A stretch of DNA of 64,000 bases from Mugilogobius chulae (lineage: Eukaryota), in contig CM100124.1 in the NCBI GenBank assembly GCA_046056395.1, positions 574,968 to 638,967 on the forward strand, read 5' to 3'. Shown here piece by piece: positions 11,857-63,358 of this stretch (positions are counted from its first letter, which is position 1; every line of letters starts with the position of its first letter). The position numbers were made by a program, and so were the translations under genes. The notes under the pieces were generated by a model, which worked only from the letters and a program-made list of their open reading frames with translations, was not told the origin of the DNA and did not search any database.

Positions 11857-11966
11857 GACGCTGAGGCCATTTTCCAGTGGCTCAGTGACTTCCAGCTGGA
11901 GCAGTACACGCCCAACTTCCTCAACAACGGCTACGACGTCCCCACCATCAGCCGCATGACTCCAGA
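11857..11966 (+). CDS. caskin1: Caskin exon, first half of SAM domain 1 (carries a 1-bp deletion frameshift as assembled)
   Basis: gttcag|GAC...GAG|gtaata; translates to [28 protein letters not shown], then the frame breaks at gtcccacc (reads PPSAA*); the -1 frame gives PTISRMTPE, matching Caskin SAM1 '[20 protein letters not shown]'. Confidence 0.75.
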
Positions 11967-12129
11967 GGTAATATAAACTACTCTGCTAACGTACTACAGC
12001 TCACTGATCAGAGAAGATTCAGTTATACACACATGACTCCAGAGGTACCCCAGTCTTTATATGAACTACTCTGCTAACGTTAAATATCTTGGTCTTTTTC
12101 TTGATGAAAATATAAAATTTCTAATCACA

Positions 12130-12870
12130 TACAATACTTGGCCAAAAAGATCAGAACAAATCTCAGCTGTTTTCGTTTTATACGTGGAGACTTGACTCTC
12201 CAAACTGCAAAAATGTTTCTGAATGCAATGATCTTCTCACATTTATCGTATTGTATCACCTCGTGGTCCCAGGCTTCTGCAACTACTTTGAAAACTCTCT
12301 GTTCATTATATAAGACTACCGGTTCTTGATAAAAAGCACAGACACTGGCATCACTGTGAAATTTTAAAGAAACACAAACTACTGAATTTTGATAATTTTG
12401 TAATTTTTAATCATCTTAAATTATTCTTTAAGTGTCTTAACTCTGATATGTCACTGAATTTTGAATTTATTAATGTCATAAATTGTACACAGAGAGTGAC
12501 TAGAGGTGCTGCTACTGGGAATTGTGTGTTCCCAGTTCAGAACATCTAGTGGTTTGTCTTCCTTTCTGCCAAAGGGCCAAGACTATGGAATAGCTTACCA
12601 ACTTATCTAAAACAGGAAACAAATAGTAATATCTTTAAGAGTAAACTAAAATGCTTGTATGTTTCCACCAAATATGTACACATGGATAAAAATGATTAAT
12701 ATATGCACACTTTCTATAAGAATGTATTTTATATGTTATTTAAATGTGACTGTTTTTGTAATGGTATTTCTACGGACAGGTGTTTAAAATTAGCACTTGT
12801 GCTAAAACACTCAAAGCAGTGCATCTGGCTGGTCCAATGTGATTGTGATGTCCATAATAAACCTAAATAA
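12130..12870 (+). mobile_element. L2-like LINE 3' fragment (ORF2 C-terminus plus 3' UTR)
   Basis: ORF 12138-12329 translates to ...MIFSHLSYCITSW (LINE ORF2 motif xHLEYC..W), followed in another frame by TRGAATGNCVFP...WNSLP...FKSKLK, a teleost L2-type tail signature. Confidence 0.5.
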
Positions 12871-13726
12871 AATAAAAATAACGTACTATATCAGCTAACA
12901 ACAGGTGGCTCTTAAAACAATTCAGTCTGAAGAAACAGCGGAGACTTCTGGATCCTGACCTGTGACTTCAAACCAGGACATTTGAAACACAGTGTTTTTG
13001 TTAGGCTCAGACGACTGCGGTCTTTCTTACATCTGGACAAATCAGGAAGTCACCAATGTTAATTGGTTGAAGCTCACAGTTGAACAAACTCTGAGGGATC
13101 AGTTCATACAGAAGTGTCACGGGGAATGCCAGAGTATGACATCATGTGACGTATACATAAGTTTTAAAAATGTCTTTAAGCTGGAAAAATATCTGTTATG
13201 TGAGAACAAAACAGTCAGGCAGTCTATTTGTAATCTAAGAACTGGAAATAACAGACTGTCAAAAATCACTGGCCGATACAAAGTCATAGACAGACATTTA
13301 TTTATTTATTAGTTTATTTGACAGGGACAATGTACATTAATAAACATTTCTGTAAATGTACCAGAATTAGCCCAAATGGCTATTTTTCATCTGCTGTCCC
13401 CGGACTATGGAGGATTCAGAGTGCCACAATTCAATATATAAATACACCATTAAATAATTTTATGCCAATAAATAAATATATTTTGAAATAAATAATTAAA
13501 TGCACAATATTTTTAAAATAATTATTTACATAATTAATTATATATTGAATTGTACAAATAAGAAATAAATAGATTTATAAATACTGAAATAATTTAATTA
13601 ATTAAATGTGGCAATGATTAAATACATACATTATTACATAATTAAATGTGTCAATATATGTTCAAATACATCTTTAAATAAATAAATGTTTCAATAAATC
13701 TTTAAAAAAAAATTAAAACTATTCGT

Positions 13727-13875
13727 GAGTTCGGGGTCTCGCGAGGTCGGCAGCAGAGCCTGTGGCTGCAGCAGGACTGTAGTTAACCAGAGCTAATGTG
13801 AGTCACCCACCGTAGCAAGACCGGTCCGGTGGCTGCACCGGAGTTAGACTGGAGGCAGTGTGAGCCCGGGGTGAG
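13727..13875 (+). repeat. interspersed repeat (family with core GGTGGCTGCACCGGAGTTGGACTGGAGGCAGTGTGAGCCCGGGGT) abutting the acceptor of the next exon
   Basis: copies at 13727-13875 (+), 22548-22700 (reverse complement) and 23175-23240 (+). Confidence 0.7.
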
Positions 13876-13903
13876 TCTGAAGCTGATGTTCTGTTGTGTT
13901 CAG

Positions 13904-14005
13904 GACCTGACGGCCATCGGAGTCACTAAACCTGGACATCGCAAGAAGATTTCTCTGGAGATCACTCAGCTCAACATCGCAGAGTGGCTCCCGGAGTTTA
14001 TCCCG
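13904..14005 (+). CDS. caskin1: Caskin exon, second half of SAM domain 1
   Basis: cag|GAC CTG...CCG|gtaaga; translates to [34 protein letters not shown] (Caskin1 reads [34 protein letters not shown]); phase 0/0. Confidence 0.85.
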
Positions 14006-60758: not shown

Positions 60759-61620
60759 GTGAGTTAGACCCAGTTTAGACCTGACTTAGACCTGACTTAG
60801 ACCCACGTTCTGGACCAGAACACCAACATCGCCCGCGTGGAGACCGGCCCGCTGACTTATATCAGACAAGACAATGAGAGGTGAGAAAGACCGGACCTAG
60901 ACCTGACTTAGACCTGGTTTAGACCCACCTACATCAGACAGGACAATGAGAGGTGAGAGAGACCGGACTTAGACCTGGTTTAGACCTGACTCAGACCTAC
61001 GTCCTCGACCAGAACACCAACATCGCCCGCGTGGAGACCGGCCCGCTGACTTATATCAGACAGGACAATGAGAGGTGAGAGAGACCGGACTTAGACCTGA
61101 CTTTAGACCTGGTTTAGACCCACCTACATCAGACAGGACAATGAGAGGTGAGAAAGACCGTACTTAGACCTGACTTAGACCTGGTTTAAACCCACCCACA
61201 TCAGACTGGACAATGAGAGGTGAGAGAGACCGTACTTAGACCTGATTAGACCTGGTTTAGACCCACCTACATCAGACAGGACAATGAGAGGTGAGAGAGA
61301 CCGACTTAGACCTGGTTTAGACCTGGTTTAAACCCACATCAGACAGGACAACGAGAGGTGAGAGAGACCCAGTTTAGACCTGACTTAGACCGCTAGACCT
61401 GGTTTAGACCCACTACATGGACATGAGAGTGAGAAGACCTGACTTAGACCTGGTTGACGGTTTAGACCGGTTTAGACCCACCTACATCGCAGGACAATGA
61501 GAGGTGAGAAAGACCTGACTTAGACCTGGTTTAGACCGAGTTTAAACCCACCTACATCAGACAGGACAATGAGAGGTGAGAAGACTCGACGTAGACCTGG
61601 TTTAGACCTGGTTTGCTATG
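60700..61620 (+). repeat. ~70-180-bp tandem repeat, about 12 copies, each unit = 3' end of mvp exon 1 + GT donor + intron start (which is the 11-bp CTGGTTTAGACC satellite)
   Basis: units such as acctacatcagacaggacaatgagag|gtgagagagaccggacttagacctggtttagaccc; longer units (60800-60880, 60985-61090) repeat ~60 nt of the exon (ccagaacaccaacatcgcccgcgtggagaccggcccgctgacttatatcagacaggacaatgagag|gtgaga); further copies at 62290-62480. Confidence 0.9.
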
Positions 61621-62559
61621 ATAAAACTTTATTGTCCATATGAAAACGGAAATTTGCCTTACATATCTGCAACTGCTGCAAGTCCCACATACAACAGACT
61701 TCATTCATCAACATAAAAGATAAAAATACATGAATACATGCGGTAAGATCATGTGTTCTTCCTTTGGTTTAAAAATGTGATGGAACATGACACAAAAGAA
61801 TGTTTAGATTTATTCCTCCTGCTGCAGGGAAATCGAAAACGCCGTCCAGAGAGTAAGAACTCAAACTCATTGTTTAAAACATGATCTGTGTCTGGAGATC
61901 CTGTAGACCAGCCGTTCCCAAACTTTTTGGAGCCGTGCCCCCCCTATTGGCCCATAGATTGCCTGAGGCCCCTCAGTATTATTTCACACTCCATTCAAAG
62001 TTAGTTAGAATGTATATATTTCATATTAGCATTGGGAATCACTGCTGTACCAATGCCACTGTTTTCTTTGTTTGCAAATGAGTGAATGTGCTCTCAAGGG
62101 GAGGTCCTATTTTGGAGCAGATGTTCAGAAGCCTCTGAATCCTGTTCTTTTGTTTAACCGAAAGGCCACAGAACCAAGCCTTACTGCACTAAAGCAGCAG
62201 ACTTTGGATAGTGACTATATAGAACTGCTCCAAGATGTTTCTGTTGACTCCAAAAGAGCTGAGCCTCATCAGAAACACGATTCGTTGTTGCACAAATCTA
62301 CTTTCTTAGACCTGGTTTAGACCCACCTCACTCGACAGGACAAGGAGAGATGAGAAAGACCGGGTTTAGGCCTGGTTTAGACCTGGTTTAGACTTGACAT
62401 AGACACACCTTCATCAGACAGAACCACAAGAGGTGAAAAAACAGACTTAGACTTGGTTTAATCCTGGTTCAAGCCTGGTTTACACCTGGAGATGCATTTT
62501 TCTGTCTTCAGAGCCCGTTTCCTCCCGTGGCAAATTAGATTCATGTTTTGTAGTGCTAT

Positions 62560-62941
62560 ATTCATATTTTCATCTCTCGTGTCAGAGTCCTGTTTCCTCC
62601 CCTGTGGTCTTGTAGTGTTACATTTATATTTTCTCTCGTGTCAGAGTCCTGTTTCCTCCCCTGTGGTCTTGTTGTGTTATATTCAGTATTTCTCTCTTGT
62701 CAGAGTCCTGTTTTCTCCTCTGTGGTCTTGTAGTGTTACATTTATATTTTCTCTCGTGTCAGAGTCCTGTTTCCTCCTCTGTGGCCTTGTAGTGTTACAT
62801 TTATATTTTCTCTCGTGTCAGAGTCCTGTTTCCTCCTCTGTGGCCTTGTAGTGTTATATTTATATTTTCTCTCGTGTCAGAGGCCTGTTTCCTCCTCTGT
62901 AGTCTTGTAGTGTTACATTTATATTTTCTCTCTCGTGTCAG
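62560..62941 (+). repeat. ~60-bp tandem repeat, 7 copies, each unit = polypyrimidine tract + AG acceptor + first ~25 nt of mvp exon 2
   Basis: unit ttttctctcgtgtcag|AGTCCTGTTTCCTCC(T/C)CTGTGG(T/C)CTTGTAGTGTTACATTTATA repeated; the final copy is the genuine exon-2 start. Confidence 0.9.
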
Positions 62942-63137
62942 AGTCCTGTTTCCTCCGCTGCGGATGCTGATGGTGCCTCCGCGTCACTACTGCGTCATCC
63001 TCAATCCCGTTGCCCGCGACGACAACGACCAGGTCCAGTTCGACCAATCAGGGCAGGCCAAGCTGAGACACGCCGACCAGGAGATCCGCCTCACCCAGGA
63101 CCCGTTCCCCCTGTACCCCGGGGAGGAGGTCCAGCAG
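62942..63137 (+). CDS. mvp: major vault protein exon 2
   Basis: gtgtcag|A GTC CTG TTT translates to (R)[65 protein letters not shown] (human reads [67 protein letters not shown]); phase 2 start matches exon 1; donor CAG|gtatga. Confidence 0.9.
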
Positions 63138-63235
63138 GTATGAACCCTCTGTAACCCTCTGTACCCCGCTGTGACCCGGGGAGGTACTGAACCCTCCTGT
63201 ACGTGTCTGAACCCTCCTGTACGTGTGTTTTTCAG

Positions 63236-63358
63236 GACGTGACGCCGCTGCAGATCGTCTTTCCCGACACGGCTCTGAGGCTCCAGGCTCTGCTCGAGTT
63301 CACCGACTCCAAAGGAACCAGAGGACGGCCGGAGACGAGTGGCTCTTCGAGGGACCAG
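63236..63358 (+). CDS. mvp: major vault protein exon 3 (1-bp deletion frameshift near aaaggaacc as assembled)
   Basis: tttttcag|GAC GTG ACG CCG CTG CAG translates to DVTPLQIVFPDTALRLQALLEFTDSKG; the -1 frame then gives [15 protein letters not shown] (human reads [41 protein letters not shown]); donor CAG|gtctga. Confidence 0.85.

What the first reader, a model, noticed from the sequence alone, without database searches (positions are those of the whole stretch)
11857..63358. Every coding region is broken by 1-bp deletion frameshifts, mostly in homopolymers; assembly error is more likely than pseudogenes
Caskin exon 11857-11966 needs gtccCcacc to read PTISRMTPE. Exon 25809-25955 has a TGA at 25883, yet the -1 frame gives the conserved GGTLRRRAP (GGGGG run) and a second -1 step is needed to reach the next exon. 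Exons 27835-28547, 28723-29660 (frames 1 to 0 to 2) and 32666-32900 each need -1 corrections. mvp exon 3 needs one at aaaggaacc. The nested antisense gene is split into six or more ORFs. All the shifts are in the same direction (missing base), which is typical of uncorrected nanopore or other homopolymer-prone reads. Caskin and mvp are conserved single-copy genes in vertebrates, so real pseudogenisation of all three is implausible.
Basis: partly seen in the sequence, partly recalled or inferred. Interest (0 to 1): 0.6.

Follow-up and report, generated by a model that had tools for sequence, protein, structure and literature searches.

The report
Single-base consensus errors break three fish genes
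Three neighbouring fish genes (caskin-2, a gene nested inside it, and mvp) are interrupted by sixteen one-base slips, and these look like leftover errors of a long-read genome assembly, not like dying genes, so the finding is ordinary.

Summary
The window is teleost DNA, apparently from a goby relative. It holds the 3' two-thirds of caskin-2 (+), a 913-codon antisense gene nested in a caskin-2 intron, and mvp exons 1-3 (+).

I count 16 single-base events in about 6.0 kb of coding DNA, roughly 1 per 380 bp. Thirteen are missing bases and three are extra bases.

Two claims are wrong. "All in the same direction" is nearly right (13 of 16).

Adding or removing those 16 bases restores:
- an 859-codon caskin-2 ORF ending at the conserved ...DQLDAMLE stop;
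- a 913-codon nested ORF collinear with a 930-aa goby protein;
- the conserved MVP N-terminus.

None of the restored ORFs has a nonsense codon, and all splice sites are canonical. Most missing bases fall in runs of 3-5 identical bases. Non-coding repeat units show the same deletion-only noise.

The best explanation is residual homopolymer or indel error in a long-read consensus (confidence about 0.85). Proof needs accurate reads, which I could not get. In passing, every long-period minisatellite in the window overlaps an exon, and most straddle a splice junction.

The parts
2348..2482 (+). caskin-2 CASK-interaction-region exon (GGALSRHASLP...QTDDGYTLYGHVAFPNA). It is 135 nt, phase 1-1, and intact.
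   Evidence: tblastn to Danionella P0098 and shark P0012; sequence
4261..4395 (+). caskin-2 exon (A)GDRSSVGSTNSVCSTRSAGSGQ.... The G4 run at 4262-4265 is one base too long for the conserved phase-1 junction, giving a +1 event (or -2).
   Evidence: The medaka junction AGC G|gt ... cag|CT GGG GAC shows phase 1. The upstream exon here also ends in phase 1.
9928..10053 (+). caskin-2 exon ...GTPRRQTVTVQSRAEPFSQQFVRPQQLLDGK. No frame break detected. The 5' end of this exon is approximate.
11857..11967 (+). caskin-2 SAM1 exon, 111 nt, intact.
13904..14005 (+). caskin-2 exon [34 protein letters not shown], intact
24346..24484 (+). caskin-2 SAM2 exon [19 protein letters not shown]...ITKLG, intact
25810..25956 (+). 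caskin-2 exon with two missing bases: C1 in the G5 run 25874-25878, and C2 in the G4C4 run 25918-25925
27835..28547 (+). caskin-2 Pro-rich exon, first part. One missing base (C3) in the C4 run 28378-28381.
28723..29660 (+). caskin-2 Pro-rich exon, second part. Missing base C4 lies in CCC 28891-28893. Missing base C5 lies somewhere in about 29505-29550 (C4 run 29522-25). The exon contains an in-frame 78-bp x4.2 repeat at 29193-29516.
32666..32900 (+). caskin-2 exon ...LDQTSVSLEAALQDVERSLE. It ends at the donor TG|gtaata. One missing base (C6) lies in about 32880-32900 (AAA 32891-93). The TAA at 32902 is not the real stop.
36437..36532 (+). last coding exon of caskin-2 (LGLRREVRRTILDDIGTMFDDLADQLDAMLE, followed by the stop), intact.
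   Evidence: the same tail is present in medaka locus L001
18716..21450 (-). Nested antisense single-exon gene of 913 codons after correction.
- Missing bases, in + strand coordinates: 21421-22, 20597-99, 20385-88, 19986-88 and 19342-45. On the gene strand these are runs T2, A3, A4, C3 and A4.
- One extra base at 21121.
   Evidence: The corrected ORF is 65% identical (514/789) and collinear with Mugilogobius chulae P0226 (930 aa).
60628..60758 (+). mvp coding exon 1. It has a compensating pair, a missing base at 60686-60688 (cacgt^ctgg) and an extra base at 60725-60728 (ccgg[a]cccg). Together they turn [13 protein letters not shown] into [13 protein letters not shown].
   Evidence: The two downstream tandem copies (60804-60881 and 60998-61075) carry the unshifted sequence.
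62942..63137 (+). mvp exon 2, intact
63236..63358 (+). mvp exon 3. One missing base within 63313-63320 (aaaggaaccag). It is not fixed to a long run.

Best explanation
The frame breaks are errors of the sequence record, not of the genome.

The window comes from a consensus built from noisy, homopolymer-prone long reads. These could be Oxford Nanopore or PacBio CLR reads; the platform cannot be told from the sequence. The consensus was not polished, or not fully polished, with accurate reads.

At about 1 position in 380 the consensus has the wrong length. Usually it is one base short, and mostly inside a run of 3-6 identical bases. In a coding exon each such error shifts the frame.

The three genes (caskin-2, the nested goby-family gene and mvp) are most likely intact and functional in the animal.

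Shown:
- where the breaks are, their size and their direction;
- that removing them restores complete, orthologue-like ORFs.

Inferred:
- that the breaks arose in sequencing or assembly and not in the germ line.
For: 1. Sixteen events occur in three independent genes at similar density. Caskin-2 has 7 in about 2.8 kb, the nested gene 6 in 2.7 kb, and mvp 3 in 0.45 kb.

2. Wherever the alignment is tight, the event is exactly one base. Residue counts then match the orthologues. The examples are GPPPPPPKRL, KAPPPPRAE, ETGPLTY, SILAKRAQEEERLKQ and TDLDLKSLNS.

3. After 13 one-base additions and 3 one-base removals there are no internal stops in 859 + 913 + 150 codons. The natural caskin and nested-gene stops are reached. 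All 22 splice sites checked are canonical AG/GT with consistent phases.

4. There is no sign of relaxed constraint.
   - The corrected MVP N-terminus is 68-74% identical to tetrapod MVP. Functional fish orthologues score 64-77%.
   - The caskin SAM region is 75-82% identical, against 79-87% for medaka.

5. In-exon tandem repeats keep the reading frame: 78 bp and 177 bp. The 5' duplication of the nested gene is 314 bp as assembled and becomes 315 bp once the N1 base is restored.

6. Homopolymer context.
   - The four events that alignment fixes to within 4-10 bases (C3, C4, N3, N6) lie in runs of 4, 3, 3 and 4.
   - Only 15.7% of coding bases lie in runs of 3 or more.
   - N1 is a TT where the paralogous copy 314 bp away has TTT.

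7. Non-coding DNA shows the same error type.
   - In the 71-bp minisatellite, units differ from the consensus by 16 deletion events, 1 insertion and 11 substitutions.
   - The unit at 14825 has 9 separate deletions and 0 substitutions.
   - A unit at 61414 shows the same pattern.

8. Precedent.
   - Residual homopolymer-length errors that fragment genes are the commonest error of long-read-only assemblies (PMC8812927, PMC12007338, PMC9262707).
   - The public medaka assembly of the same locus (L001, GCA_014170095.1) also has frame breaks in the caskin-2 big exon and in mvp exon 2.
Against: - I found no accurate reads or transcripts of this species. The closest proteins were only 85% (MVP, Pampus) and 65% (nested gene, Mugilogobius) identical. 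Exact-match scans of two collections found nothing. The germ-line state was therefore never observed directly.
- A 13:3 deletion-to-insertion ratio is compatible with real small-indel mutation, which is itself deletion-biased and enriched in runs.
- Several events lie in very short runs: mvp 60686-88, mvp 63313-20 and the nested-gene TT. That is less typical of classic homopolymer error.
- The caskin SAM region is a few points more diverged than in medaka.
- The locus is unusually rich in minisatellites, and the large caskin exon carries a lineage-specific insertion or intron. Both could be read as signs of a decaying region.
Confidence: 0.85

Rival explanations
1. The frameshifts are real. 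The window would be a recently inactivated copy of the caskin-2/nested-gene/mvp block. It could be a segmental duplicate, or a young non-recombining (sex-linked) segment, that is beginning to decay by replication slippage while repeats accumulate.
For: - Three adjacent genes are all hit.
- Minisatellites are abundant, and a 175-bp insertion or intron splits the large caskin exon.
- The caskin SAM region is slightly more diverged than in medaka.
- Real 1-bp indels are also deletion-biased and favour runs.
Against: - There are no nonsense codons in 1,922 corrected codons, and no splice-site, start or stop loss.
  - I assume, from general knowledge of pseudogene spectra and not from any test here, that neutral DNA gains about 8-10 substitutions per indel.
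  - On that assumption, 16 indels imply more than 100 substitutions and about 5 new stops, so P(0) is about 0.01.
- Every event whose size can be fixed is 1 bp, whereas real frameshifting indels have mixed sizes.
- Conserved motifs downstream of every break are preserved in the shifted frame.
- In-exon repeats keep a period that is a multiple of three.
- Deletion-only noise also occurs in non-coding repeat units.
Confidence: 0.08
2. There are no breaks at all. The reader simply miscounted bases, and the apparent shifts come from wrong exon boundaries or missed small introns.
Against: tblastn with many orthologues changes frame inside continuous, conserved stretches where HSPs overlap or abut. 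No GT...AG interval exists at these points. The raw CDS carries 12 and 42 in-frame stops.
Confidence: 0.02
3. The mRNAs really lack these bases and the proteins are rescued by recoding, that is programmed -1 ribosomal frameshifting or RNA editing.
For: None beyond the fact that most shifts go in one direction.
Against: - It would need 13 separate -1 sites and 3 +1 sites in three unrelated genes.
- I inspected the local contexts, for example CAGGGGGAAC, GCCCCTCC, GCAAAAGAG and CTAAATCG. None of them is a canonical X XXY YYZ slippery heptamer in the incoming frame.
- Orthologues in other fish encode the same peptides in a single frame.
Confidence: 0.005

Closest known systems
Residual homopolymer or indel errors of long-read-only assemblies that fragment genes (PMC8812927 Polypolish; PMC12007338 Kastor; PMC9262707 on ONT R10.4)
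   Same: - Single-base length errors, mostly deletions and mostly in runs of identical bases.
- A density of a few per kb.
- Genes appear as strings of overlapping ORFs in different frames.
- Coding and non-coding DNA are hit alike.
   Different: The platform and polishing history are unknown. Several events sit in runs of only 1-3 bases, and three are insertions. Those papers describe mainly bacterial assemblies.
Unitary or duplicated pseudogenes in vertebrates
   Same: Several frame-disrupting lesions per gene.
   Different: There are no nonsense substitutions and no splice-site loss. Only 1-bp events are seen. Conservation is orthologue-level, and the same lesion type occurs in three neighbouring genes and in non-coding repeats.
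Frame breaks in the public Oryzias melastigma assembly GCA_014170095.1 at the orthologous caskin-2/mvp locus (L001)
   Same: Same two genes, same synteny (caskin-2 followed by mvp), and frame changes inside the large caskin exon and in mvp exon 2.
   Different: Only two breaks were seen in about 3.5 kb examined. Both are +1 steps, and I did not test whether they are errors or real.

Membership tests
Long-read consensus (homopolymer/indel) assembly error | Events are single-base length changes | tested here: met
   At C1, C3, C4, M1, M2, M3, N1, N3, N4 and N6 a one-base edit gives the same residue count as the orthologues. At C2, C5, C6, N5, N2 and the 4262-65 site only the change modulo 3 is known.
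Long-read consensus (homopolymer/indel) assembly error | Events concentrate in runs of identical bases | tested here: met
   - Ten of the 13 deletions have a run of 3 or more in the permitted interval.
- The four tightly placed deletions lie in runs of 4, 3, 3 and 4, against 15.7% of coding bases in such runs.
- Three deletions (M1, M3, N1) lie in runs of 1-2.
Long-read consensus (homopolymer/indel) assembly error | Errors are independent of coding status, so the same noise appears in non-coding DNA | tested here: met
   The 71-bp intronic minisatellite shows 16 deletion events, 1 insertion and 11 substitutions against its consensus. Single units carry 9 deletions (at 14825) or several deletions (at 61414) with 0-1 substitution.
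Long-read consensus (homopolymer/indel) assembly error | The bases are present in accurate reads or transcripts of the same organism | not testable with these tools
   No same-species sequence was found in the protein searches or in the exact-match DNA scans.
Pseudogene (real inactivation) | Nonsense substitutions and loss of splice sites, start or stop accompany the frameshifts | tested here: not met
   There are 0 internal stops after correction. Splice sites are canonical, the starts of mvp and the nested gene are present, and the caskin and nested-gene stops are present.
Pseudogene (real inactivation) | Relaxed constraint on the protein sequence | tested here: inconclusive
   The MVP N-terminus lies within the range of functional orthologues. 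The caskin SAM region is 4-6 points lower than in medaka. No close relative was available for a lineage-specific dN/dS estimate.
Programmed ribosomal frameshifting | Slippery heptamer X XXY YYZ with a downstream stimulatory structure at the shift site | tested here: not met
   I inspected the contexts at the sites by eye and none fits the heptamer in frame. I did not look for downstream structures.
Caskin-2 gene | Tandem SAM domains, Pro-rich region and conserved C-terminal tail, in synteny with mvp | tested here: met
   The best hits are caskin-2 proteins carrying SAM_1/SAM_2, Caskin-Pro-rich and Caskin-tail Pfam domains. The tail exon is present. Medaka has the same caskin-2 to mvp order.
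Major vault protein gene | N-terminal Vault repeat domains | tested here: met
   The corrected exons 1-3 are 85% identical to Pampus MVP. All hits carry the Vault and Vault_2 Pfam domains.

The most novel reading that the evidence does not exclude
The missing bases are real. The window would then capture the very first stage of coordinated decay of a caskin-2/nested-gene/mvp block. The block could be a young non-recombining (sex-linked) or freshly duplicated segment. Homopolymer slippage and minisatellite growth at exon borders would have preceded any nonsense mutation.
Probability: 0.06. Interest if true: 0.5.

Novelty: not a real feature. Interest (0 to 1): 0.1.

Why it matters
As biology it matters little, because the genes are almost certainly intact.

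As quality control it matters more:
- An error every 380 bp or so (roughly QV 26) would break most genes longer than a few hundred codons in this assembly.
- It would inflate pseudogene counts and split gene models. The orthologous medaka record already has caskin-2 split into two models.
- It would corrupt any selection or gene-loss analysis.
- Anything else called from this assembly that depends on exact reading frames or exact homopolymer or microsatellite lengths should be distrusted until the assembly is polished.

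Tried and rejected
1. Looking for the same species.
   - The three protein searches gave at best 85% (MVP, Pampus), 83-86% (caskin SAM exons, several fish) and 65% (nested gene, Mugilogobius) identity.
   - The loci of the Mugilogobius proteins are not on record.
   - A 32-mer from mvp exon 2 has no exact match in the metagenome or prokaryote genome collections.

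2. Automatic placement of each missing base by scanning insertions against orthologues. This works for conserved sites (C3, C4, N3, N6, M1). In variable regions (C1, C2, C5, M3) it depends on trivial score differences, so I report intervals there instead.

3. The direction bias as a discriminator. A 13:3 ratio has P of about 0.1-0.2 under a 2:1 real deletion bias, so I dropped it as a main argument.

4. The homopolymer length spectrum of the window against the medaka locus. It was not informative, and the medaka record is itself suspect.

5. My own first reading, that exon 32666-32900 was intact and ended at a TAA stop. This was wrong.

6. Rfam found no RNA families in the window. Pfam found nothing in the nested gene.

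7. A wrap-around alignment of all tandem arrays produced spurious long gaps. Only its 1-bp counts (34 deletions, 12 insertions) are usable. I replaced it with the unit-by-unit analysis.

Full report
**What the window is.** The window is vertebrate (teleost) DNA. It has low-GC introns and GC-rich exons.

Searches with translated exons identify three genes.

- Caskin-2 lies on the + strand (SAM_1/SAM_2, Caskin-Pro-rich and Caskin-tail hits).
- mvp exons 1-3 lie at the 3' end of the window. The best hit is Pampus MVP at 85% identity.
- A long antisense gene sits inside the 10-kb caskin intron between exons 13904-14005 and 24346-24484.
  - Its only homologues are several unlinked "hypothetical" or "trichohyalin-like" proteins of the gobies Mugilogobius chulae and Boleophthalmus pectinirostris.
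  - The source is therefore probably a goby relative.

The medaka locus L001 has the same caskin-2 to mvp order.

**Gene models.** Using tblastn and direct reading I defined eleven caskin-2 exons:

- 2348-2482
- 4261-4395
- about 9928-10053
- 11857-11967
- 13904-14005
- 24346-24484
- 25810-25956
- 27835-28547
- 28723-29660
- 32666-32900

The three mvp exons are 60628-60758, 62942-63137 and 63236-63358. The nested gene is a single exon on the minus strand, from 21450 down to 18716. All splice sites are AG/GT.

- Exon 25810-25956 reads ...HRAAAQ in frame 3 and runs into a TGA at 25884.
  - GGTLRRRAPGPPECE follows in frame 2 and ...SPHLSSSNAQ in frame 1.
  - Only the last frame ends the exon in phase 0, which is what joins it to DGDLSAEI.
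  - The two steps fall at a G5 run (25874-78) and a G4C4 run (25918-25).
- In 27835-28547, ARKKGPP is followed by PPPPKRLSSVSS one frame back. The only place a base can be added is the C4 run 28378-81.
- In 28723-29660, KQRPKAPPP is followed by RAEDVL...PEFNLKESDTVKRRHKPKD one frame back, at the CCC 28891-93. The conserved LSPKPAVAPKPVRQSLL lies one more frame back. That second step can only be placed within about 29505-29550.
- Exon 32666-32900 looked intact to me at first.
  - The TAA after it is part of the donor TG|GTAATA.
  - The conserved tail exon (…TILDDIGTMFDDLADQLDAMLE*) starts in phase 0 while 32666-32900 ends in phase 2.
- One base is therefore missing near its end, where AAA 32891-93 is a candidate.
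- mvp exon 3 changes frame between EFTDSKG and [13 protein letters not shown], at 63313-20.
- The nested gene runs through six overlapping ORFs.

- Exon 11857-11967 already contains gtccccacc. It is 111 nt long and gives ...[13 protein letters not shown] in one frame. That example is a miscount.
- Seven of the fifteen coding units are unbroken, so "every coding region" overstates the case.
- Three events go the other way.
  - mvp exon 1 has a compensating pair, a missing base at 60686-88 and an extra base at 60725-28.
    - The pair replaces the conserved [13 protein letters not shown] with [13 protein letters not shown].
    - Two tandem copies just downstream carry the unshifted sequence.
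  - The nested gene has an extra G at 21121.
  - Exon 4261-4395 begins cag|CGGGGAGAT, where the conserved phase-1 junction needs CG GGA GAT.
    - The medaka junction is AGC G|gt...cag|CT GGG GAC.
    - The upstream exon in the window also ends in phase 1.

The total is 13 missing bases and 3 extra bases in about 6.0 kb of coding DNA.

**Effect of correcting them.**

- Six one-base additions turn a caskin CDS with 12 in-frame stops into an uninterrupted 859-codon ORF that ends at the conserved stop.
- Five additions and one removal turn a nested-gene reading with 42 stops into a 913-codon ORF running from its ATG to a stop.
  - That ORF is collinear with the 930-aa Mugilogobius protein P0226 from residue 1 to 894, with 514/789 identical residues.
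- Three edits restore the conserved MVP N-terminus.
- No nonsense codon remains in 1,922 codons.

**Sequencing error or real mutation?** Several independent lines favour error.

- Size. Wherever the alignment is tight, exactly one base is involved and the residue count then equals that of the orthologues.
- Context.
  - The tightly placed deletions lie in runs of 3-4 identical bases, although only 15.7% of coding bases lie in such runs.
  - The N1 site is TT where the paralogous copy 314 bp away has TTT.
- No other damage.
  - There are no stops, and no lost splice sites, starts or stop codons.
  - If neutral DNA gains about 8-10 substitutions per indel, 16 real indels should come with over a hundred substitutions and about five stops. 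That ratio is general knowledge about pseudogene spectra and was not tested here.
- Constraint. The corrected proteins are about as conserved as functional orthologues are to each other.
- Frame-preserving repeats.
  - The repeats inside exons have periods of 78 and 177 bp.
  - The 5' duplication in the nested gene is 314 bp as assembled and becomes 315 bp once N1 is repaired.
- Non-coding DNA.
  - In the 71-bp intronic minisatellite most units are identical.
  - The deviating units differ by 16 deletion events, one insertion and 11 substitutions.
  - One unit has nine separate deletions and no substitution.
  - A unit of the mvp intron-1 array behaves the same way.
  - Patches of deletion-only divergence are what a locally poor long-read consensus produces.
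- Base rate.
  - This is the commonest residual error of long-read-only assemblies and is known to fragment genes (PMC8812927, PMC12007338, PMC9262707).
  - The public medaka record of the same locus also has frame breaks in both genes.

**What remains open.**

- The direction bias alone (13:3) would not reject real mutation.
- I could not obtain accurate reads or transcripts of the species.
- A recently inactivated duplicate or non-recombining copy of the block is not excluded. I give it about 8%.
- Recoding explanations are negligible.

**Verdict.**

- As a biological feature it is not real, so interest is low.

**Side observation.** Every tandem array in the window with a period of 44 bp or more overlaps an exon.

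- Six arrays straddle a splice junction, and so does a seventh, two-copy duplication at 28530-28600. Each copies the edge of an exon together with its donor or acceptor site.
- The six arrays are:
  - 2412-2865
  - 13973-15495
  - 23937-24371
  - 32878-33301
  - 60681-61614
  - 62548-62960

- The 27 kb of intergenic DNA has only short-period arrays. The medaka locus has no junction-spanning array.
- A single human precedent exists, the F7 intron-7 minisatellite (PMC1557585).
- I did not explain this pattern. It deserves a genome-wide test.

Noticed in passing
window 2412-2865, 13973-15495, 23937-24371, 28530-28600, 32878-33301, 60681-61614, 62548-62960: All minisatellites with a period of 44 bp or more overlap exons.
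- Six arrays straddle a splice junction, and so does a seventh, two-copy duplication at 28530-28600.
- Each tandemly copies the last or first 12-78 nt of a caskin-2 or mvp exon together with its donor (gtaag, gtgag, gtaat) or acceptor.
- The array always extends into the intron.
- The 27-kb intergenic stretch has none, and neither does the medaka locus.
- This is far more than chance, since exons make up about 5% of the window. I have no explanation.
- The one precedent I found is the human F7 intron-7 VNTR (PMC1557585).
   Followed up: partly
window 28548-28722: A 175-bp GT...AG interval with matching phases splits the large Pro-rich caskin-2 exon.
- That exon is continuous in medaka DNA and in transcripts of other fish.
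- Both ends of the interval carry CACAG.
- Its 5' end is a 33-bp tandem duplicate of exon end plus donor, and it contains the (TTAGACCTGG)n motif.
- It may be a lineage-specific intron gain or a spliced insertion.
   Followed up: partly
window 18716-21450 (- strand): The nested antisense gene belongs to a family found only in gobies.
- Mugilogobius chulae has at least four unlinked copies, and Boleophthalmus has copies annotated 'trichohyalin-like'.
- The protein is acidic at the N-terminus and has an E/K/R-rich coiled-coil region at the C-terminus. It has no Pfam domain.
- The window copy has an in-frame tandem duplication of its first ~105 codons, in which the second ATG has become ACG.
   Followed up: partly
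L001 20196-21978 and 29891-30089 (Oryzias melastigma GCA_014170095.1): The public medaka assembly of the orthologous locus also changes frame inside the large caskin-2 exon (frame 3 to 1) and inside mvp exon 2 (frame 2 to 3). Caskin-2 is annotated there as two separate gene models.
   Followed up: partly
window 7795-9915 and 24759-25244: There is a very long, impure (TC)n/(AG)n tract: 2.1 kb at 65% matches with 12% indels. It ends a few bases upstream of a caskin-2 exon. A second tract of 0.5 kb lies in the next intron. The impurity may itself be partly consensus error.
   Followed up: no
window 28607-28640, 57500-57950, 60763-61600, 62305-62373, 63359-63400: An 11-bp satellite, (TTAGACCTGGT)n, and its variants occur on the + strand only. 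They lie repeatedly just downstream of exon ends in caskin-2 and mvp, and once as a 40-copy array upstream of mvp.
   Followed up: no
window 17968-18504 (- strand): A 179-codon coiled-coil ORF (…DELIKKRQECVEAIEERDNALGEMKRYREN…) lies just downstream of the nested gene's stop. It is not covered by the goby homologues. It could be a further exon or a separate gene.
   Followed up: no
window 31107-31274 (+) and 45102-45350 (-): Two copies of a repeat translate to ...NPRPSCCEARAL... They are probably a SINE-like interspersed element.
   Followed up: no
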